Virus record (IMG/VR): IMGVR_UViG_3300026077_000001
Direction: 5' to 3' (one strand)
DNA length: 64,000 nt
DNA from: a virus
Taxonomy: Duplodnaviria > Caudoviricetes
Translations under genes and position numbers: made by a program
Shown: piece after piece, positions 1 to 57,368 of the stretch
Numbering within the stretch: the stretch's first letter is position 1
Layout: every line of letters starts with the position of its first letter
Notes under the pieces: model-generated
Told to the model about the DNA's origin: nothing
Databases searched by the model: none
Seen by the model: the letters and a program-made list of their open reading frames with translations, nothing else

Positions 1-1365
1 ATTCCTGGCTTATATGATTGGGTGGTCAGTTTTGATCTCAACAGTCTATATCCTCATCTCATTATGCAGTACAACATTAGCCCAGAGACGCTTGTCGAAA
101 GAAGGCATCCCACCGCCAGTGTTGATGGACTGCTCAACCAAACTGTTTCTGTCGGAGGGGACTATGCTGTGTGTGCCAACGGAGCACAATACCGCAAAGA
201 CATCCACGGATTTCTCCCAGAGATGATGCAACGCATCTACGATGAGAGGACAATATATAAGAAGCGTATGCTTCATGCAAAGCAAGAGTATGAAACAAAA
301 CCAACAGACAAACTCAGACGAGACATTGCTAAGTTTAATAACATCCAAATGGCAAGAAAGATCCAACTTAACTCTGCCTACGGTGCTATCGGTAACCAAT
401 ACTTCAGGTATTACAATCTTGCGAACGCTGAGGCAATCACTCTATCAGGACAAGTCTCAATCCGATGGATAGAAAACAAGGTAAACAAATACCTAAACAA
501 TGTATTAAAAACTAACGAGAAAGATTATGTTATTGCTAGTGACACTGATAGTATTTACATCCATATGGGTCCTCTGGTACAAGCTGTATTCCCCAGTGGA
601 GAGAAGGACGATCAGAGTACACTTAGGTTCCTTAAAAAGGTGTGTGATGTGGAACTTGATCGCTATATTGAGAGTGCTTATCAAGAAATGGCAACCTATG
701 TAAATGCATACGAGCAGAAGATGGTCATGAAGCGAGAGAATATCGCTAACAAGGGTATCTGGACTGCTAAGAAAAGATATATTCTTAACGTATGGAATAG
801 TGAGGGTGTCCAGTATGAGAAACCTAAACTAAAGATGATGGGTATCGAAGCAGTTAAGTCTTCTACACCTGCACCATGTCGTGTCGCTATTAAAGAAGCA
901 CTCAATGTTATTATGACTGGTAGTGAGTCTGACACACAGAAATATATCAAGGACTTCCGTGAGAAGTTTGAAGCAATGCCACCAGAGGAAGTAGCATTCC
1001 CACGTGGTTGTAATAATATACAGAAGAATACATCTTCGGCCACTATCTATGGTAAGGGATGCCCTATGCATGTGCGTGGAGCGTTGTTGTACAACTTCCA
1101 CATTAAAAAGAATAAGTTGTACCACAAGTATCCTGTTATCCAAGAGGGTGAGAAGATTAAGTATCTTCATCTACGTACCCCAAACCGAATCAATGAGAAT
1201 ATTATCTCATTCTTTCAAACACTTCCCACCGAGTTTGGGCTTGACAATAGTATAGATTATGATTTACAATTTGAGAAGAGTTTCCTTGCTCCTCTTAAAG
1301 CAATCCTTGATACTATTGGGTGGGAAGCAGAGAAACGTCACACATTAGAGGCACTATGGTCTTAA
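1..1365 (+). CDS. gp43: DNA polymerase B family, T4 gp43-like (5'-truncated by window edge)
   Basis: Frame 1 open from nt 1; motifs SFDLNSLYP, KIQLNSAYG, ASDTDS, KKRY, KMMGIEAVKSSTP. Confidence 0.98.
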   Translation: MPGLYDWVVSFDLNSLYPHLIMQYNISPETLVERRHPTASVDGLLNQTVSVGGDYAVCANGAQYRKDIHGFLPEMMQRIYDERTIYKKRMLHAKQEYETKPTDKLRRDIAKFNNIQMARKIQLNSAYGAIGNQYFRYYNLANAEAITLSGQVSIRWIENKVNKYLNNVLKTNEKDYVIASDTDSIYIHMGPLVQAVFPSGEKDDQSTLRFLKKVCDVELDRYIESAYQEMATYVNAYEQKMVMKRENIANKGIWTAKKRYILNVWNSEGVQYEKPKLKMMGIEAVKSSTPAPCRVAIKEALNVIMTGSESDTQKYIKDFREKFEAMPPEEVAFPRGCNNIQKNTSSATIYGKGCPMHVRGALLYNFHIKKNKLYHKYPVIQEGEKIKYLHLRTPNRINENIISFFQTLPTEFGLDNSIDYDLQFEKSFLAPLKAILDTIGWEAEKRHTLEALWS

Positions 1366-1622
1366 TATCCTGTCCACCAGTCTATCATTTACCTGGCACA
1401 TGGACTAAATGTAAGGGAGCAGTCATCCCTCACTTCAATCTAACACCTGGTCAGGGGTTTGGTGTATTCATGGGTCTGTTAGTGGTAGCACTAATGATCT
1501 ATGGTCTCTACATGACCTTTGGTAGTGGTGGTAAAGATCTCAGAGATGAGATAGACGAGCATTCTAAGATGCATGAGTTAGGAATAGCACATGGACATAG
1601 CCCAAGAACGAAACACAAATAA
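1356..1622 (+). CDS. PsbN-like small membrane protein, copy 1
   Basis: One TM helix then [18 protein letters not shown], resembling PsbN YxxFG..LxDP.EH; ATG 1356 overlaps gp43 stop; paralog at 26783. Confidence 0.65.
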
Positions 1623-1624
1623 TT

Positions 1625-2632
1625 ATGAGTTTTCTAAAAGATATTGTCAAGGAGATAGACAATGAATACGCTAGTGTCGTTGCTGATGGTGTTGCTGCTG
1701 GCGATACAAGTGGTTATATCGACACGGGTTCATACATCTTTAACGCACTACTCAGTGGCTCCATCAAAGGTGGGGTTCCAGGAAACAAAATCTCTGCTAT
1801 TGCAGGTGAGTCATCAACAGGCAAAACTTTTTTCTGTCTTGGTATGGTTCAGTCTTTCCTCGAATCTAATCCTGATGCTGGGGTTATTTACTTTGAGTCT
1901 GAAAGTGCGATAAGTAGAGAGTTAATTGAGTCAAGAGGTATTGATTCCAATCGTATGGTATTGGTGCCAGTTAATACTGTCCAAGAGTTTAGGACACAAA
2001 GTATTAAGATTCTTGACAAATATTTGGAACAGAAGGAACAAAAGCCTATGCTTATGGTGTTAGACTCCCTTGGTATGTTGTCTACCTCCAAAGAGATGGA
2101 GGACTCCGAGCAAGGTAAAGAGACACGTGATATGACACGTGCTCAAGTAGTCAAGTCTATCTTCAGAGTGCTGACACTGAAGTTAGGAAAGGCAAACGTG
2201 CCTTTAATTGTGACTAACCATACATATGATGTGGTGGGTGCATATGTGCCGACCAAAGAGATGGGTGGAGGTAGTGGTCTCAAGTATGCTGCCAGTAACA
2301 TCATCTACCTTAGCAAGTCTAAGGAGAAGGATGGGAAGGAAGTAATTGGTAACATTATCAAAGCTAAATTGGTTAAGTCAAGGTCAGCAAAAGAAAATTC
2401 TCAAGTTGCAGTACGATTATTTTATGACGAACGTGGATTGGATCGCTATTACGGATTACTGGAGTTGGGTGAGAAGCACGGAGTTTTTGACCGCAAAGGA
2501 AATAGGATTGTTATCAATGGCGATACTGTTTTCCCTTCGGTCGTTTATAAGAATCCCGATAAATACTTCTCGTCCGAAATCCTACAAGCCCTAGACGAGT
2601 GTGCTGCTAAAGAATTCTCTTATGGAACTTAA
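1625..2632 (+). CDS. uvsX: UvsX RecA-like recombinase
   Basis: Walker [28 protein letters not shown]. Confidence 0.97.
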
Positions 2633-3182
2633 AGACTTTATCAAGGTCTACGATGACGTGCTAGACCTTAATCTATGCAGAAATGCTATTGATTTATTTG
2701 AGCATGACACCGAAGTAGTTACTCGTCAAGAAGTACAAGACTTCTGTAAGTTTAACATGTTAAACATGACAGAAGAGACTGAGACGAATAATAAAAAAGA
2801 TTGGACAGTAGTCCATACGCAGGCAATCTATGCTGTTAAACAGTATGGTGAGCAATACATGAAGGAGTTAGACTGTGAGTCATTTTGGCCTAAGGCAAAC
2901 TCCCTAGAGCAGATCAAGATGATTAAGTATGGTAGACAGGATTACTTCAAACGTCACATTGATGTGGGAGATTACCAGTCTGCACGAAGATTTCTTTCTT
3001 ATTTTATTTTCTTGAATGATGTTGTCGAAGGAGGAGAGTTAAAGTTTCCTCTCTTAGACTTGTCAATCCAACCCAAACGTGGTAGGGTTGTCTTATGTCC
3101 GTCCTCATGGCAGTATCCTCATGAATTTGGGGTGCCAAGTAACGACAGTTATATGATAACAACATATCTGCACTACAAATGA
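2622..3182 (+). CDS. 2OG-Fe(II) oxygenase (prolyl-hydroxylase-like)
   Basis: HID ... [12 protein letters not shown] ... YPH double-stranded beta-helix motifs; ATG 2622 preferred over GTG 2601. Confidence 0.85.
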
Positions 3183-4549
3183 CACTAAAGATTGAAGAGA
3201 TTACCCTTAGTAAACTTATCCTCAACGAGAGTTACTGTAGAAAGGTTATGCCTTTCATTAAGAGGGAATACTTTGATGGACATCCTAATGGTGTCTTGTT
3301 TGAAACATTAACAGAGTATGTAAGTAACTTTGATACCAACCCAGAGCCTAATGCTTTGAAGATTGAGGTTGAGAAGAGACGTGACATAACTGAGGATGTA
3401 TATAAGGACATTGAAAGGTTTCTTGATAACTTAGATAGAGACCAATATAATGAAGACTGGCTTGTAGATACCACTGAGAAGTGGTGTAAAGAGCGAGCAA
3501 TATATCTCGCACTGATGGAATCTGTACAGATTGCTGATGGGCAAGACAAAACACGCACAAAGGATGCAATTCCAAGCATCATGTCTGAGGCATTGGGTGT
3601 ATGTTTTGATGATCATGTAGGACACGATTACATACAGGACTCTGATGACAGATATGACTTCTATCACAAGAAGGAAGAGAAGGTTCCCTTTGATCTCGAT
3701 TATTTCAACAAGATTACCAAAGGTGGTTTACCTAACAAGACTCTTAATATCGCACTTGCTGGTACAGGTGTCGGGAAGTCTCTATTCATGTGCCACGTGG
3801 CTAGCTCCATGTTGCTCCAAGGGCGGAACGTACTCTACATTACAATGGAAATGGCAGAGGAGAAAATTGCTGAACGAGTTGATGCCAACCTCTTGGACAT
3901 CCCCATCCAACAACTCAACAGTCCCCTCCTCACAAAAGAAAAGTACTCCTCCAAGTTGCTTCAGTTAAAGAAGAAGACACAAGGTAAGTTAGTAATCAAA
4001 GAATATCCTACAGCGTCTGCACATGTAGGTCATTTTAAGGCACTCTTAAATGAATTGTCATTGAAGAAAGGTTTCAGTCCTGATGCTATCTTCGTTGACT
4101 ACCTAAACATCTGTGCATCAGCTAGATATAAAGGGACTATAGTTAATAGTTACACATATGTCAAAGCAATTGCGGAAGAACTCAGAGGATTGGCAGTGGA
4201 GTTCAATGTACCTATCATCTCTGCAACCCAAACAACTCGTAGTGGGTTTGCTAACAGTGATGTCGATCTTACTGATACCTCTGAGTCATTCGGTCTTCCC
4301 GCTACTGCTGACCTTATGTTTGCTCTTATCAGTACAGAAGATATGGAACAACTCGGACAAATAATGGTCAAGCAGTTGAAGAATAGGTATAATGATCCTA
4401 CAATGTATAAGCGTTTCGTCATAGGTATTGACAGAGCGAAGATGAGGCTGTATGATTGTGAGCAAGCAGCTCAGGATGACATCATCGATGCAGGTGATAT
4501 CGAACCTGTCACACAAACCAAGAATAAATTTGAGGGACTCAAAGTATAA
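3179..4549 (+). CDS. gp41: Replicative DNA helicase gp41
   Basis: AGTGVGKS Walker A, FVDYL, SATQTTR, KQLKNRY. Confidence 0.97.
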   Translation: MTLKIEEITLSKLILNESYCRKVMPFIKREYFDGHPNGVLFETLTEYVSNFDTNPEPNALKIEVEKRRDITEDVYKDIERFLDNLDRDQYNEDWLVDTTEKWCKERAIYLALMESVQIADGQDKTRTKDAIPSIMSEALGVCFDDHVGHDYIQDSDDRYDFYHKKEEKVPFDLDYFNKITKGGLPNKTLNIALAGTGVGKSLFMCHVASSMLLQGRNVLYITMEMAEEKIAERVDANLLDIPIQQLNSPLLTKEKYSSKLLQLKKKTQGKLVIKEYPTASAHVGHFKALLNELSLKKGFSPDAIFVDYLNICASARYKGTIVNSYTYVKAIAEELRGLAVEFNVPIISATQTTRSGFANSDVDLTDTSESFGLPATADLMFALISTEDMEQLGQIMVKQLKNRYNDPTMYKRFVIGIDRAKMRLYDCEQAAQDDIIDAGDIEPVTQTKNKFEGLKV

Positions 4550-5211
4550 TGGCAAAGAAATTTACCAATGAACCGCAAGGTAATGATGTGGAAGCAGCAG
4601 CAGAGAAGATTAACTCTGAAGCACGTGACCAGGTAGACAAAGCACAGAAAGATGTTGAGAAGATTAAGGAGGAAACTCCCCAGAAGATTGAAGACTTCGT
4701 TAATGACGACCGAATGGGTAGTGCTCCTAGGTCTAAAGGCATTGCTGCCGACAAGCTTAAAGATAGGGATAACAAGAAGGCAAAGAAGGGTAAGAAACAG
4801 GATAAATTTGAGATAGACCTAGACAACTACATGAAGTTTGTAGATAGGGTTACCTCTGATGCATCAAAAGATTACAATGCTTTGCTGTCTCGTTATGATG
4901 AGTTGCATAAAGCAGGTTGTAAGATTGAAAGACTAGACACTGCTGCATCTGGTATGGCATCAGAGGGTGGTGAGTTTATGGAGATTGTTAAGAAACTTAA
5001 GTTTCAAGGCAAACCATATGACAAGGCAACTAAAGAGCACCTAGAGAAAGAGTTGGGTGACATCATGTGGTATGTTGCACAAGCAGCACTAGCACTTGAC
5101 CTACGTCTTGATGAGGTTATCTATACCAACACTCTTAAGTTGGCAGCAAGATATCCTGGTGAGATGTTTAACGTCCACTACTCAGAAAATAGAGCACCTG
5201 GAGACATTTAA
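4549..5211 (+). CDS. mazG: MazG-like nucleotide pyrophosphohydrolase with ~85-aa charged N-terminal extension
   Basis: SEGGEFMEIVKK, ELGDIMWY, KLAARYP, SENR motifs of cyanophage MazG. Confidence 0.92.
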   Translation: MAKKFTNEPQGNDVEAAAEKINSEARDQVDKAQKDVEKIKEETPQKIEDFVNDDRMGSAPRSKGIAADKLKDRDNKKAKKGKKQDKFEIDLDNYMKFVDRVTSDASKDYNALLSRYDELHKAGCKIERLDTAASGMASEGGEFMEIVKKLKFQGKPYDKATKEHLEKELGDIMWYVAQAALALDLRLDEVIYTNTLKLAARYPGEMFNVHYSENRAPGDI

Positions 5212-20357: not shown

Positions 20358-20635
20358 TTTTTTGGATTGGATTCTTCGTTATGTTTTTTAACGAAGGTTT
20401 TGTTATGATGAGACACGTGTCACCTTGGTTTGCAAGACGTAGACAAGGTTTCATTGATAAATTTGGTGAGAATATATGGTATAGGTTCCACGGTACATTA
20501 GATTATGTTTGGATGGGACTAGTCACACTAGGATTAATAGTTAACTCTCACAGAGTACTACACATAATGGTGTTACTAACATTCTGGACTTTAGCTTGGA
20601 TGATATTTTATCTACCGAGGTGGATCAAGAGATGA
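20354..20635 (+). CDS. Hypothetical membrane protein
   Basis: Several hydrophobic stretches; coupled to nrdB. Confidence 0.65.
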   Translation: MIFWIGFFVMFFNEGFVMMRHVSPWFARRRQGFIDKFGENIWYRFHGTLDYVWMGLVTLGLIVNSHRVLHIMVLLTFWTLAWMIFYLPRWIKR

Positions 20636-21192
20636 CTTCTTATGTAAATCTTACTCTACCTATTTTTGAGTTTATATTACCTCAGAAATGTATTGATGAA
20701 GCAAATGAAGTCATTGATAACTGGAAACAATCAGGTGAACCTGCACCAGAAATATCAAACGTAAGAGCAAAACAAACGCAGTGTAACCTACAGATGCCTA
20801 AGACTGTAGAGTTCACTGCTTTATGTTGTAAGATGATATCTAATCTAGTTTATAATGCTGGTGGTAGAGTCTATGGAGGACTCAATGATGGCACCAATGA
20901 TATAGAATACATTGCACGTGACTGTTGGGGTATTGATTATTCTCCTGGAGATTATACTGTACCTCACAATCATTTTCCAGCAGACTTCTCTGCTGTAGGA
21001 TTCTTAAAACTAGAAGAGGGATGTTCCCCTGTTAGATTTCACGGTGCAGGTATGTTTATGGACTGTACTTTCCAACCATCAGAGAGACAGTTAATTATAT
21101 TTGATGGCAAGATTCTTCATAGTGTTCCACCTACTTCTGCTGAACGTAGAGTGGTAGCATTAAATTTGTTTAAAGAACCAGGTACTTATTAA
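20632..21192 (+). CDS. Putative 2OG-Fe(II) oxygenase
   Basis: PHNH, LHSVPP, RRVVALN. Confidence 0.72.
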   Translation: MTSYVNLTLPIFEFILPQKCIDEANEVIDNWKQSGEPAPEISNVRAKQTQCNLQMPKTVEFTALCCKMISNLVYNAGGRVYGGLNDGTNDIEYIARDCWGIDYSPGDYTVPHNHFPADFSAVGFLKLEEGCSPVRFHGAGMFMDCTFQPSERQLIIFDGKILHSVPPTSAERRVVALNLFKEPGTY

Positions 21193-21824
21193 TGTTTTAC
21201 ATAGGTGAGGTTCCTAAGTCTATTAGTGAACCAGTTAAAGCAAGGTTACTACACAACCCTTATTGGCCTTGGTTTATGCAAACAGAAACCACGTCATACG
21301 ATAAGGAGTTTAGTACCTCTATACCTGATGAATTATCAAGTGAGAACCCACAGTTTATGCACACTGTACTCAATACATTAGGTGAGATAGTATCACCTGA
21401 TGGGTATGAGAGAGTATGTGAACCAGTGTGGAAGTGGATAGTATCTAACACAGAGATGCCTGAGTTCGCAGACTTCAGAAGAATAAAAATTAATCTTGCA
21501 CCTAGAAGAGAATCTAATACCCTCTACCATACTCCTCACGTTGACTTTGACCAACCACACTGGACTATCATTTACTATGTGAATGACTCTGATGGTCCAA
21601 CATTCTTCTTCAAACAAAGGTACGATGGTACCAGACAAAAATTACAAATAGAACAGAAGATTGAACCTAGACAGGGTAGGTTCGTTCTGTTTGATGGATT
21701 GCAGTATCACACGAGTAGCAATCCGCAATACAATGATATGAGATGCGTAATCAATTTCAATTACACCTCAAGTTCCTCCGACAACTTAAACAGGAGCTTA
21801 GACGTGAACCCAGAGAACCATTGA
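21192..21824 (+). CDS. 2OG-Fe(II) oxygenase
   Basis: PHVD, IYYVNDSDG, YH, RCVINFN. Confidence 0.82.
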   Translation: MFYIGEVPKSISEPVKARLLHNPYWPWFMQTETTSYDKEFSTSIPDELSSENPQFMHTVLNTLGEIVSPDGYERVCEPVWKWIVSNTEMPEFADFRRIKINLAPRRESNTLYHTPHVDFDQPHWTIIYYVNDSDGPTFFFKQRYDGTRQKLQIEQKIEPRQGRFVLFDGLQYHTSSNPQYNDMRCVINFNYTSSSSDNLNRSLDVNPENH

Positions 21825-21940
21825 CACCTGACTTTTATAAGAAGATGCATAAGTTAAAACCAAAAGGTTCACGCAGATACAAAAAGTAGTTTTAGCTACA
21901 AAAGTTGCTAAATAGTTGTGCATATGCTAACATATGCATA

Positions 21941-22157
21941 CGTTCGCCCTTCGGGGTGCAAGTAGGTCACGGAACGGAGCGTTCATCCTGATGATTCCTA
22001 TTCTATTAGCCACTTCTATATCTTGTTCTGATGCTAATGTTCTTATCGATAAGATAAACACATTTAATGTTGATGAAGAAGTACGTGCTGAAATGATTCA
22101 GGTCGTAAAGGAAGAGGTAGACTGGTGTAATTGGGACGCAAATGTCTGAAGGAACGG
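21941..22157 (+). ncRNA. Tandem glnA-type (glutamine riboswitch-like) aptamers
   Basis: Unit 1: CGTTC(21941)/GAACG(21972) with GCCC-TTCG-GGGT hairpin and GCAAGTA. Unit 2: CGTTC(21980)...GCAAA..CTGAAGGAACG(22156). Upstream of DUF4278 gene; matched to consensus from memory. Confidence 0.6.
21991..22149 (+). CDS. 52-aa ORF nested in the riboswitch-like element
   Basis: MIPILLATS...CNWDANV*; stop codon lies within CTGAAGG. Confidence 0.6.
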   Translation: MIPILLATSISCSDANVLIDKINTFNVDEEVRAEMIQVVKEEVDWCNWDANV

Positions 22158-22189
22158 GGCTAAAAATCCTACTACTTTGGAGTAAAACA

Positions 22190-22324
22190 ATGGCAAAAGT
22201 CATCTACCGTGGTGTCGAGTACGACACTAAAGAGTACAACGCTAAGGTTCTCGATGAGAATTCAAAGCGTAACAGACACGATCTAATGTATCGTGGACTG
22301 AAGGTTCAAAAAGCATACGCTTAA
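22190..22324 (+). CDS. DUF4278-family small protein (44 aa)
   Basis: Two YRG motifs (IYRGVEY, MYRGL); GGAG ribosome-binding site. Confidence 0.8.
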   Translation: MAKVIYRGVEYDTKEYNAKVLDENSKRNRHDLMYRGLKVQKAYA

Positions 22325-22363
22325 CCTGTACCACCGACTTAGAACAGTCTATGTCAGTAATCA

Positions 22364-22393
22364 AAGAGATCCCTTGATGGATCTCTTTTTTTG
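22364..22393 (+). terminator. Rho-independent terminator
   Basis: AAGAGATCC-loop-GGATCTCTT then T-run. Confidence 0.85.
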
Positions 22394-22425
22394 TGGTAAT
22401 ATATAATCTAAAGATATAAGCACCT

Positions 22426-23097
22426 ATGAAACTATTCCTCGACTGTTCGGATCCTGATCTTATAGGTCACGCACTTGAAACTGGTCTTGTGGATGGTGTT
22501 ACCACTAACCCAACTCTGATGAAGAAGTTGGGACAAGATCCACAAGAAGTTATTAAACGTATTGCAGAGATGTTTCCTTGGGATGCATCCATATCTGCTG
22601 AAGTTGTTGGTCAGAATGCTGACGAGATGCTAGAGATGGCATCCCAGTACATTAGGATCGCACCTAACATTACTATTAAACTACCTTGCTCACGTGAGGG
22701 ATTGATTGCTTGTGGTGATCTAACTGGTGATGATATTTCAACCAATGTTACTCTAGTATTTTCTCCTGCACAAGCAGTTCTTGCTGCTAAGGCAGGTGCT
22801 AGTTACATCTCACCTTTCATAGGAAGGGTTGCAGATCAATACTGGGATGGACTATCTCTTATAAAAGATATCCGTAAAATTTATGATCGTAATGATGTTA
22901 CAACTCAAATCCTTGCTGCAAGTATTAGGAACCCCATTGATGTACCCAATGCCTTTGGAGTGGGTGCTGACGTATGTACTTTACCGTACGACATATTCAA
23001 CAAACTATTTGACCATTGTTTAACTACAGCAGGTCTTGAAGCCTTTGATAAAGATTGGGCACAACTAATGGAAGATTTACTACCTGAAGATGAGTGA
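22426..23097 (+). CDS. talC: Transaldolase (TalC/FSA type)
   Basis: DGVTTNP, TIKLP, NVTLVFS, YISPFIGR, LAASIR. Confidence 0.96.
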   Translation: MKLFLDCSDPDLIGHALETGLVDGVTTNPTLMKKLGQDPQEVIKRIAEMFPWDASISAEVVGQNADEMLEMASQYIRIAPNITIKLPCSREGLIACGDLTGDDISTNVTLVFSPAQAVLAAKAGASYISPFIGRVADQYWDGLSLIKDIRKIYDRNDVTTQILAASIRNPIDVPNAFGVGADVCTLPYDIFNKLFDHCLTTAGLEAFDKDWAQLMEDLLPEDE

Positions 23098-57141: not shown

Positions 57142-57176
57142 TGTATAATAATTTTGTTGGGTTGATCACCCGACAA

Positions 57177-57344
57177 GGGAGTGACTGAATAATCTTTCTG
57201 GCAAACGCTGGATAAGGTGATGAGACACAGGTGGTGCTGCACCGAGAGGTGAATCGACTTACCAGTCGGGTCTCAGGCAAGGACGTAAAATTTACTACTG
57301 TAGTAATGCCCGTTCTTTGTTGGTATACAGAAATCCAACCTCCC
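57177..57344 (+). ncRNA. manA RNA motif (probable)
   Basis: GGGAG/CTCCC and GTTGG/CCAAC closing stems; GAGAC/GTCTC pairing; resembles the cyanophage manA motif from memory; TATAAT at 57144. Confidence 0.65.
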
Positions 57345-57368
57345 ACCCTACCTATTCACGAGGCTATT

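What the first reader, a model, noticed from the sequence alone, without database searches (positions are those of the whole stretch)
21908..22393. Tandem glutamine-riboswitch-like aptamers with a whole ORF nested in one loop
After a late-promoter motif (CTAAATA 21908) come two glnA-like units. Unit 2 is split: its 5' arm (CGTTCATCC, 21980-21988) and 3' arm (GGGACGCAAATGTCTGAAGGAACG, 22133-22156) flank a 52-aa ORF that starts 3 nt after the 5' arm and stops inside CTGAAGG. A translating ribosome would unfold the aptamer, so translation and ligand binding could be coupled to control the downstream DUF4278 gene. Glutamine riboswitches upstream of DUF4278 genes are known in marine picocyanobacteria. 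The protein-in-a-loop design suggests phage sensing of host nitrogen status.
Basis: partly seen in the sequence, partly recalled or inferred. Interest (0 to 1): 0.75.

Follow-up and report, generated by a model that had tools for sequence, protein, structure and literature searches.

The report
Gene nested inside glutamine riboswitch aptamer
In this marine cyanophage, and in hundreds of related phage contigs, a complete small protein gene sits inside the hairpin loop of a glutamine-sensing RNA switch, so folding of the sensor and translation of the inner gene cannot both happen; I found no published description of this riboswitch layout.

Summary
Window 21908-22395 is one small transcription unit of a T4-like cyanophage. 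It runs: late-promoter-like motif, 5' hairpin, aptamer unit 1, aptamer unit 2, a DUF4278-type gene, terminator.

Unit 2 is a split glutamine (glnA-type) aptamer. Its 5' arm (21980-21988) and 3' arm (22130-22156) pair across a real 52-aa gene (21991-22149, phrog_504).

A covariance model trained on other phages, with the window's clade left out, finds it as the only hit in 64 kb (41 bits, E about 2.5e-10). The ORF is read as a loop insertion.

The design recurs in over 150 IMG/VR contigs and in cultured phages. Unit 1 can hold a second gene (phrog_6471), and P-SSM4, P-HM2 and P-RSM4 have both units nested.

The evidence:
- compensatory changes in the long-range helix
- frozen synonymous sites in the arm-coded codons
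- a fixed stop position
- codon periodicity in the ORF interior

The start codon lies in helix P1a and the stop in the aptamer core, so folding and translation exclude each other.

Glutamine binding and the direction of control are not tested. Reciprocal control of the nested gene and DUF4278 is my inference. In this window unit 1 is degenerate. No paper describing this layout was found.

The parts
21908..21914 (+). Late-promoter-like motif CTAAATA (T4-type TATAAATA variant)
   Evidence: Read. There are 10 copies in the window, all on the + strand, but no more than chance expects. Relatives carry TATAAATA, CATAAATA or CATATATA at the homologous place. RNA-library contig depth rises from 2 to 23-28 at about 21932. 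Inferred, not shown.
21917..21940 (+). 5' hairpin at the presumed start of the transcript
   Evidence: A 10-bp stem in both the MFE and the centroid fold. Relatives have different palindromes at the same place, judged by eye only.
21941..21976 (+). Aptamer unit 1, unsplit and degenerate in this clade
   Evidence: Sub-threshold Rfam matches: Glutamine-II 18.2 bits (E 0.044) and Glutamine 15.1 bits. It keeps P1 (CGUUC/GAACG) and the AAGUA core. It lacks the bulged A and the C of GACG that the other unique unit-1 sequences have.
21980..21992 (+). Unit 2 5' arm: P1 5' strand CGUUC (21980-84), bulged A, P1a 5' strand UCCUGAU (21986-92) running into the start codon
   Evidence: CGTTCA is invariant in 71 aligned sequences. 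RNAalifold pairs it with the 3' arm. Model R1 matches it.
21991..22149 (+). Nested gene ORF-B, 52 aa plus TGA; phrog_504 / T4-GC 430 family
   Evidence: phrog_504 at E 3.9e-15. All 70 unique homologues have an open frame, against P about 0.02 per random frame. Codon entropy at positions 1/2/3 is 1.25/0.75/1.46 bits. Two Cys are invariant and one Glu is 99% conserved. The AF2 model is a two-helix hairpin, pLDDT 76. Free-standing homologues exist elsewhere.
22130..22156 (+). Unit 2 3' arm: P1a 3' strand AUUGGGA (22130-36), core CGCAAAUGUCUGAAG, P1 3' strand GAACG (22152-56). It also encodes the last codons N-W-D-A-N-V and the stop of ORF-B.
   Evidence: Synonymous sites are frozen: Asp GAC 135 to GAT 0 in the last six codons, against 28 to 127 in the interior.
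22157..22182 (+). Short hairpin directly after P1 (GGG...UCC), then the UACUACUUU tract and Shine-Dalgarno GGAG (22179-82); presumed expression platform of the DUF4278 gene
   Evidence: An 80-sequence alignment shows the hairpin's third pair as G-C, A-U, U-A or C-G (read by eye). RNAalifold returned no consensus structure. The mechanism is unresolved.
22190..22324 (+). DUF4278-type gene (44 aa, two YRG motifs), phrog_5049
   Evidence: The P-TIM40 homologue is annotated as a DUF4278 domain protein.
22363..22395 (+). Intrinsic terminator
   Evidence: 10-bp stem, 6-nt loop and a T-run.

Best explanation
Window 21980-22156 is a glutamine-riboswitch aptamer of the glnA type. Its P1a hairpin loop has been expanded to hold a complete, translated small gene (ORF-B, phrog_504).

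Shown by comparison:
- Both arms are under RNA-level selection.
- They form P1 (5 bp) and P1a (5 bp; 7 bp in this window) across 134-190 nt.
- The inner ORF is a real protein gene.

It follows from the geometry that the folded aptamer buries the nested start site. The 11 nt before the AUG are the two 5' strands, and A and U of the AUG pair in P1a. There is usually no Shine-Dalgarno.

It also follows that a ribosome reading the last six codons or stopping at UGA melts P1a, the ligand core and the P1 3' strand. Aptamer folding and ORF-B translation are therefore mutually exclusive.

Inferred: glutamine locks the fold. That would shut off ORF-B and turn on the downstream DUF4278-type gene, as glutamine riboswitches do for gifB in Synechocystis (PMC6212724). 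At low glutamine ORF-B would be translated, and its ribosome traffic would keep the sensor open and DUF4278 off.

The phage would then read host nitrogen status and make one of two small proteins, or one of three where unit 1 is also nested.
For: - Held-out model: one hit in 64 kb, 21978-22158, 41 bits, E about 2.5e-10.
- RNAalifold on 71 full-length sequences recovers only the long-range P1 and P1a plus a 2-bp hairpin in the 3' core. It predicts nothing inside the ORF.
- Covariation on unique arm pairs. ORF-B, n=74: pair 4 is CG 52, UG 13, UA 7; pair 5 is AU 58, UA 6, CG 4 (Fisher 1e-3 and 4e-9). Pairs 6 and beyond are random. ORF-C, n=42: pair 4 is AU 29, UA 4, CG 2, GC 1 (3e-5).
- In P-SSM4 and P-HM2 the Trp codon becomes Lys AAG, matching a CCC-to-CUU change in the 5' arm. 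In L009 the frame of the tail changes but P1a is kept as UCUC/GAGA.
- Frozen synonymous sites in the arm-coded codons: Asp GAC 135 to 0, Lys AAA 35 to 0, no Ala GCT. This is against the interior codon preference.
- The stop lies exactly 7 nt before the end of GGAACG in 69 of 70. All 39 unique nested unit-2 3' tails carry TGA or TAA there, whereas 6 of 27 unsplit unit-2 aptamers have CGA (p 0.003).
- The AUG lies 4 nt after CGUUCA in 57 of 70. 27 of 34 unique leaders have no 4-mer SD core. All 80 unique DUF4278 leaders retrieved carry a GGAG, AGGA or GAGG core; that core was part of the retrieval pattern.
- Two different genes in two aptamers use the same plan. ORF-C (phrog_6471) in unit 1 stops at the UAA of the conserved GCAAGUAAG in 75 of 80 loci, and 77 of 80 have both arms.
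- Unsplit aptamers from other phages, whose arm sequences closely match the split arms (several 3' arms letter for letter), score 31-39.6 bits on RF01739 (cut-off 35).
- RNA-library contigs from three studies cover aptamer 1, the ORF, the 3' arm and DUF4278 without interruption.
Against: - No ligand binding, structure probing or translation data exist for any split form.
- Rfam's curated models do not report unit 2, and unit 1 of this window is far below threshold.
- The MFE fold does not recover either aptamer (z = -0.66).
- P1a is short for closing a 134-nt loop, so folding may need the ORF to be ribosome-free and compact.
- The covariation statistics ignore phylogeny. Most ORF-B arms are the same UCCCA/UGGGA.
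- One sub-lineage (L009, P0023, P0050) reads through the whole 3' arm in another frame, so stopping before P1 is not obligatory.
- The expression platform of DUF4278 could not be resolved. The ON direction is borrowed from Synechocystis and Prochlorococcus reporters.
Confidence: 0.5

Rival explanations
1. Passenger genes in a tolerant loop. The aptamers are ordinary ON switches for DUF4278 only. Two small phage genes were inserted into the P1a loops, the only places in the leader where an insertion does not destroy the sensor. Their starts and stops abut the arms because phage genomes are compact. Translation of the passengers is incidental to regulation.
For: ORF-B has free-standing homologues with their own SD and unrelated C-terminal tails in other phage contigs, so the gene predates the nesting. 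Unsplit, singly nested and doubly nested forms coexist among close relatives: 34, 41 and at least 30 loci. That suggests easy gain and loss. T4-like phages shuffle small genes often (general knowledge).
Against: No nested ORF keeps an SD or any spacer inside the loop. The AUG is drawn into P1a in nearly all. The stop position is fixed and a non-stop codon is never seen there. Two unrelated or barely related genes adopted the same plan in two aptamers, although other places in the unit would serve as well. Whatever the origin, the physical clash between ribosome and aptamer remains.
Confidence: 0.3
2. Relic aptamer. After the insertion the split unit no longer binds glutamine. The arms are kept for another reason, such as a long-range helix that stabilises the mRNA, directs processing, or brings the ORF-B stop close to the DUF4278 start for translational coupling.
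For: In this window unit 1 has clearly degenerated, so aptamer decay does happen in this lineage. A 134-190-nt loop is unprecedented for this class. The ORF-B stop is only about 40 nt from the DUF4278 start.
Against: The unpaired ligand-core nucleotides of the 3' arm (ACGCAA...GAAGG) are as conserved as in unsplit aptamers, including synonymous sites. A plain helix would not need them. The bulged A after CGUUC is invariant in 71 sequences.
Confidence: 0.12
3. The loop is not coding. The 'ORF' is a chance open frame within a large variable RNA domain of the aptamer.
For: No proteomic or ribosome-profiling evidence was available. Most leaders lack an SD.
Against: All 70 unique sequences have an open frame, against P about 0.02 per random frame. 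Length varies only in whole codons. Entropy by codon position is 1.25/0.75/1.46 bits. Both Cys are invariant and one Glu is 99% conserved. 245 clusters at 50% identity match the profile, including free-standing genes. No conserved RNA structure is predicted inside the ORF.
Confidence: 0.03

Closest known systems
Tandem glutamine (glnA-type, RF01739) riboswitches upstream of DUF4278 / gifB-like genes in cyanobacteria, marine metagenomes and cyanophages (PMC2864571, PMC6212724, PMC9481103, PMC9964418)
   Same: The P1 and P1a helices, the bulged A, the ACGCAA / GAAGGAACG core, the tandem arrangement and the downstream DUF4278-type gene with YRG motifs. Other phages carry the unsplit form at the same locus, for example P-TIM68.
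   Different: The P1a terminal loop is 3-8 nt in the unsplit phage aptamers seen here. Here it is a 134-190-nt translated gene. Its start codon is in P1a and its last 5-6 codons and stop are written in the aptamer core. No paper I could search mentions this.
Short ORFs inside riboswitch leaders, such as mgtL in the Salmonella mgtA Mg2+ leader (from my own knowledge, not checked here)
   Same: A translated ORF lies within a ligand-sensing leader. Ribosome position and ligand jointly decide the RNA fold.
   Different: mgtL is a 17-codon regulatory peptide in the expression platform and has no function of its own. Here the ORF is a conserved 49-63-aa protein family with free-standing homologues, and it sits inside the aptamer itself.
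Homing-endonuclease ORFs in peripheral loops of group I introns of T4-like phages (from my own knowledge)
   Same: A protein gene is carried in a loop of a functional structured RNA. Long-range helices close over the ORF, and translation into the core competes with RNA folding.
   Different: The host RNA is a self-splicing ribozyme and the ORF is a mobile selfish gene. Here the host RNA is a metabolite sensor within an mRNA, and nothing is spliced: RNA-library contigs keep the ORF.

Membership tests
Glutamine riboswitch aptamer (Rfam RF01739, glnA RNA) | P1 helix CGUUC / GAACG enclosing the aptamer | tested here: met
   Unit 2: 21980-84 pairs with 22152-56. The helix is invariant in 71 sequences and is predicted by RNAalifold. 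Unit 1 keeps it too.
Glutamine riboswitch aptamer (Rfam RF01739, glnA RNA) | P1a helix after a bulged A, supported by covariation | tested here: met
   There are five pairs with compensatory changes at pairs 3-5 in the split forms and at pairs 1-5 in the unsplit forms. In this window P1a is 7 bp, 21986-92 with 22130-36. The bulged A is present in unit 2 and replaced in unit 1.
Glutamine riboswitch aptamer (Rfam RF01739, glnA RNA) | Conserved unpaired core (ACGgAAGUA ... GAAGGAACG) | tested here: inconclusive
   Unit 2 has ACGCAAAUGU...CUGAAGGAACG. The GAAGGAACG half is exact, but AAGUA is replaced. Phage unit 1 types show the reverse pattern. Unsplit phage aptamers with these same cores score 31-39.6 bits.
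Glutamine riboswitch aptamer (Rfam RF01739, glnA RNA) | Score at or above Rfam's gathering cut-off (35 bits) | tested here: not met
   In the window, unit 1 scores 15.1 bits and unit 2 is not reported. The curated model did not report the 181-nt split unit, probably because of the length of the loop insertion (my inference). The session model R1, which allows the insertion, gives 41 bits. Unsplit relatives straddle the cut-off.
Glutamine riboswitch aptamer (Rfam RF01739, glnA RNA) | Selective binding of L-glutamine | not testable with these tools
   Needs in-line probing, ITC or SHAPE.
Glutamine riboswitch aptamer (Rfam RF01739, glnA RNA) | Location in the 5' leader of a nitrogen-metabolism or DUF4278 gene | tested here: met
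   The DUF4278-type gene starts 34 nt after the aptamer. The association is described in PMC6212724.
DUF4278 (PF14105), downstream gene | Pfam score above the curated cut-off; YRG motifs | tested here: inconclusive
   23.2 bits against a 25.3 cut-off, E 9e-5. Two YRG motifs are present. The homologue in P-TIM40 is annotated DUF4278. phrog_5049 matches at E 1.8e-19.
phrog_504 (nested gene ORF-B) | Full-length profile match | tested here: met
   E 3.9e-15 over residues 1-51. Function is unknown. There is no Pfam family.
Regulatory leader peptide (attenuation / mgtL type) | Short peptide whose sequence matters only for ribosome stalling, with no independent protein family | tested here: not met
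   ORF-B is a diverse protein family (245 clusters at 50% identity) with a conserved two-helix core and free-standing members.

The most novel reading that the evidence does not exclude
A single metabolite-binding aptamer works as a two-output toggle. The glutamine-bound fold silences the gene held in its own loop and activates the gene downstream. Ribosomes on the inner gene feed back by unfolding the sensor. In phages such as P-SSM4, P-HM2 and P-RSM4, two such units in series would order the translation of three small proteins according to host nitrogen status. This would be a natural split aptamer that integrates ligand and translation.
Probability: 0.35. Interest if true: 0.9.

Novelty: new variant of a known kind. 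Interest (0 to 1): 0.8.

Why it matters
Riboswitch aptamers are normally treated as compact non-coding domains in 5' leaders. Here a translated, conserved protein gene lies inside the aptamer, and part of the protein is written in the ligand-binding core.

If the split form still binds glutamine, several things follow:
- One sensor can control two genes in opposite directions.
- Ribosome traffic becomes a second input to a riboswitch.
- Aptamers tolerate far longer loop insertions than search models assume, so split riboswitches may be missed systematically by covariance-model scans.

It also gives three uncharacterised small cyanophage proteins (T4-GC 429, T4-GC 430 and the DUF4278-type protein) a shared link to host nitrogen status. 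These phages infect Prochlorococcus and Synechococcus, the most abundant marine phototrophs.

The layout is present in cultured model phages, so it can be tested directly.

Tried and rejected
- Rfam cmscan gave no hit to unit 2 at the gathering threshold over the whole window, or at E up to 10 over 21850-22450. Unit 1 gave only weak hits.
- The MFE fold of 21915-22200 recovered only the 5' hairpin and neither aptamer (z = -0.66). It is uninformative.
- RNAalifold on the 80-sequence expression-platform alignment returned no consensus. I found no convincing anti-SD pairing by eye, so the platform mechanism stays open.
- hhalign of ORF-B against ORF-C gave probability 8.6%, although both Cys align. 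One ORF-C hits phrog_504 at E 0.087. Common ancestry is not established.
- The protein atlas returned only hypothetical viral clusters for both ORFs. I ran no fold search because a two-helix hairpin would give meaningless matches.
Whether hosts encode it was not tested.
- The window's own assembly is not held.
- Read laying offered only assembled contigs, so there are no transcript ends, strand or levels. Stretches without cover (22299-22392 and upstream of 21782) are not interpreted.
- Ames and Breaker 2011 (PMC3127080) is not held. I cannot exclude that it mentions long P1a insertions.
- The supplements of PMC2864571 do not discuss glnA insertions.

Full report
WHAT IS THERE. The window comes from a T4-like marine cyanophage. 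It carries talC at 22426-23097, large ORFs just upstream (20596-21824; the gene at the corresponding place in S-SSM4 is annotated 2OG-Fe(II) oxygenase), and a manA RNA at 57155-57349. Positions 21908-22395 read as one compact unit:
- a late-promoter-like CTAAATA (21908-14)
- a 10-bp hairpin (21917-40)
- aptamer unit 1 (21941-76)
- a 3-nt linker
- the 5' arm CGTTCATCC (21980-88)
- a 52-aa ORF from ATG 21991 to TGA 22147-49
- the 3' arm GGGACGCAAATGTCTGAAGGAACG (22133-56)
- a short hairpin and a GGAG Shine-Dalgarno (22179-82)
- a 44-aa DUF4278-type gene (22190-22324)
- an intrinsic terminator (22363-88 plus T-run)

IS UNIT 2 AN APTAMER? Rfam's curated models see only unit 1, and weakly: 18.2 and 15.1 bits against cut-offs of 33 and 35. 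The decisive information comes from relatives.

P-TIM68 carries two ordinary unsplit glutamine aptamers in tandem in front of its DUF4278-type gene (neighbouring genes differ). ACG-2014b, P-TIM40 and S-SSM4 have the window's layout. Unsplit aptamers from other phages score 31-39.6 bits on RF01739, straddling the cut-off of 35. Their arms closely match those of the split forms, and several 3' arms are identical letter for letter.

I built a covariance model from 27 unsplit and 12 split unit-2 sequences of other phages. The window and its close relatives were left out, and RNAalifold chose the structure (P1 plus P1a). In the 64-kb window, on both strands, the model gives a single hit at 21978-22158: 41.0 bits, E about 2.5e-10 (rough calibration), full model length, with the ORF as a loop insertion.

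HOW WIDESPREAD? Three samples of IMG/VR contigs were examined.
- Anchored on the nested protein: 56 of 56 loci have both arms. The two that start at a contig edge lack only unit 1.
- Anchored on the DUF4278 protein, and so unbiased for architecture: 34 loci have two unsplit units, 30 have the ORF in unit 2, and 11 have a different ORF in unit 1.
- Anchored on that second ORF (ORF-C, phrog_6471, about 68 aa): 77 of 80 have both arms. Of the three exceptions, two are cut by a contig end and one is degenerate. Thirty of the 80 also have a nested unit 2.

More than 400 further IMG/VR matches exist for each anchor. In cultured phages the two ORFs are annotated as T4-GC 429 and 430. P-SSM4, P-RSM4 and P-HM2 have both units nested, followed by the DUF4278-type gene.

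THE ARMS ARE UNDER RNA-LEVEL SELECTION.
(i) RNAalifold on 71 full-length unit-2 sequences, ORFs included, predicts the long-range P1 (5 invariant pairs), P1a, a 2-bp hairpin in the 3' core, and nothing within the ORF.
(ii) On unique arm combinations P1a is a 5-bp helix. For ORF-B (n=74), pair 4 is CG 52, UG 13, UA 7 and pair 5 is AU 58, UA 6, CG 4. For ORF-C (n=42), pair 4 is AU 29, UA 4, CG 2, GC 1 and pair 5 is AU in all 42. Pairing falls to random from pair 6. The 5' and 3' letters are associated (Fisher 1e-3, 4e-9, 3e-5), with the caveat that the sequences are related.
(iii) Pairing overrides the protein. In P-SSM4 and P-HM2 the 5' arm reads UCCUUA and the Trp codon is replaced by Lys AAG, giving UAAGGA. 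In L009 the tail is read in another frame but P1a is kept as UCUC/GAGA.
(iv) Synonymous sites in the arm-coded codons are frozen, against the gene's own codon preference. Asp is GAT 127 to GAC 28 in the interior but 0 to 135 in the last six codons. Lys AAG to AAA is 114 to 73 against 0 to 35. Ala GCT is 121 against 0. Entropy in the W-D-A codons is about 0.1-0.2 bits at every position, against 1.25/0.75/1.46 in the interior.
(v) The stop codon lies exactly 7 nt before the end of GGAACG in 69 of 70 unique sequences. At that site all 39 unique nested 3' tails have TGA or TAA, while 6 of 27 unsplit unit-2 aptamers have CGA (p 0.003).

THE ORF IS A REAL GENE. All 70 unique homologues are open, where a random frame of this composition is open with P about 0.02. 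Lengths range from 49 to 63 aa. Variation is lowest at codon position 2 and highest at position 3. Two Cys are invariant and one Glu is 99% conserved.

AlphaFold predicts a two-helix hairpin (residues 12-24 and 29-42, pLDDT 76). The aptamer-coded tail is disordered (pLDDT 44). A profile search of 1.8 billion representatives finds 245 clusters.

Some distant members are free-standing genes in other phage-like contigs. They have no aptamer arms, unrelated C-terminal tails, and a strong SD in three of the four inspected. So the gene family predates the nesting, and the W-D-A-N tail is the imprint of the aptamer. No function could be assigned.

GEOMETRY AND MECHANISM. In this window U21986-U21992 pairs with A22130-A22136 (7 bp, two of them G-U), so A and U of the start codon are in P1a. 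In 57 of 70 sequences the AUG follows CGUUCA by 4 nt. In 27 of 34 unique leaders there is no 4-mer SD core. The DUF4278 leaders retrieved all have one, though the retrieval pattern required it.

Initiation without an SD depends on an unstructured start region (general knowledge), so a folded aptamer should block ORF-B initiation. Conversely, a ribosome on the last six codons or at the stop occupies P1a, the core and the P1 3' strand. Mutual exclusion is therefore a structural consequence.

What glutamine does is inference. Both cyanobacterial glutamine riboswitch types switch translation of DUF4278-type genes ON (PMC6212724). By analogy I propose that glutamine closes the aptamer, silences the nested gene and activates DUF4278, with the reverse at low glutamine. 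I put about 0.5 on this reading as a whole.

The platform after P1 is a 3-4-bp hairpin whose third pair appears as G-C, A-U, U-A or C-G, followed by a UACUACUU tract and the SD. I could not derive a switching mechanism from it.

EXPRESSION. Contigs from three marine metatranscriptome studies cover 21932, 21957 or 21963 through 22291 or 22294 at 100% identity and without interruption. Depth is 27.6, 29.4 and 6.4, against 2 immediately upstream. The unit therefore occurs as one uninterrupted stretch in RNA libraries, with the ORF in place. Contigs cannot prove transcript ends, and DNA carry-over is possible.

SPECIAL TO THIS WINDOW. Unit 1 of this clade is degenerate (CGUUC-G-CCC...GGG-U-GCAAG), so the split unit is the only consensus-like sensor here. 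This explains why the usual CCCAUG of the 5' arm reads CCUGAUG here, with the pairing kept through G-U pairs.

COMPARISON AND NOVELTY. Glutamine riboswitches, their tandem arrangement, their link to DUF4278 and their presence in cyanophages are all known (PMC2864571, PMC6212724, PMC9481103, PMC9964418). A translated, conserved gene inside the aptamer's own hairpin, sharing codons with the ligand core, was not found in any searchable paper.

The nearest analogues are leader ORFs such as mgtL and ORFs in loops of group I introns. Both differ in kind. I class this as a new variant of a known kind, of high interest, with the regulatory logic still to be shown.

Noticed in passing
L041, L069-L075, L097, L108, L121, L138, L141-L220; L221 (P-SSM4), L222 (P-RSM4), L223 (P-HM2): A second gene family (ORF-C, phrog_6471, T4-GC 429, about 68 aa, motif HWE.SC..WN) is nested in the P1a loop of aptamer unit 1. 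It ends at the UAA of the conserved GCAAGUAAG core, in a different frame from ORF-B. In many phages both units are nested.
   Followed up: yes
L225-L229 (metagenome contigs): Distant ORF-B homologues are free-standing genes in operons of small overlapping ORFs. They have no CGTTCA/GGAACG arms and unrelated C-terminal tails. Three of the four inspected have a strong SD.
   Followed up: partly
L009; proteins P0023, P0050: One sub-lineage reads the 3' arm in another frame (tail YETQKPTEGTG) and stops just after P1, while P1a is kept by a compensatory change (UCUC/GAGA).
   Followed up: partly
window 5068-64000; 21986-21993: CATG is absent from 59 kb of the window (all 22 sites lie within 1-5067, against about 288 expected for the whole window). 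The 5' arm reads CCTGATG here instead of the usual CCCATG, which avoids CATG while keeping P1a through G-U pairs.
   Followed up: partly
window 21934-22149: An in-frame upstream ATG at 21934 gives a 71-aa ORF running through unit 1. Gene callers used such upstream starts in relatives (74-90-aa representatives P0003-P0006 and others, matching from about residue 25). This would hide the aptamer from annotation.
   Followed up: no
A7 (unsplit unit-2 aptamers, for example L083, L084, L085, L096, L097): Several unsplit P1a loops contain ATG directly before GGGAC, giving a 5-codon mini-ORF (M-G-R-K/T-S-stop). They may be scars of ORF loss by deletion, or chance.
   Followed up: no
window 21917-21940 and homologous places in L001-L004, L029, L097, L110: A strong hairpin of differing sequence lies between the late-promoter-like motif and aptamer 1 in all relatives inspected. 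It could be a 5'-end stabiliser.
   Followed up: no
L035, L048, L049, L060, L069, L070 (after the second GGAACG): Some loci carry an extra stem-loop of about 30 nt inside the short hairpin between P1 and the Shine-Dalgarno of the DUF4278 gene.
   Followed up: no
L035-L060: In a Synechococcus-phage group the gene after the aptamers is a longer two-YRG protein beginning MNTLN (about 55 aa), not the 44-47-aa MAKVTYRG type.
   Followed up: no
window 57155-57349: A full-length manA RNA (RF01745), 180.9 bits.
   Followed up: no
window 21988-22131 (read laying joints, runs X3 and X4): RNA-library contigs of related phages match both arms but carry a different 138-nt sequence between them. This shows, in environmental data, conserved arms around a diverged ORF.
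   Followed up: no
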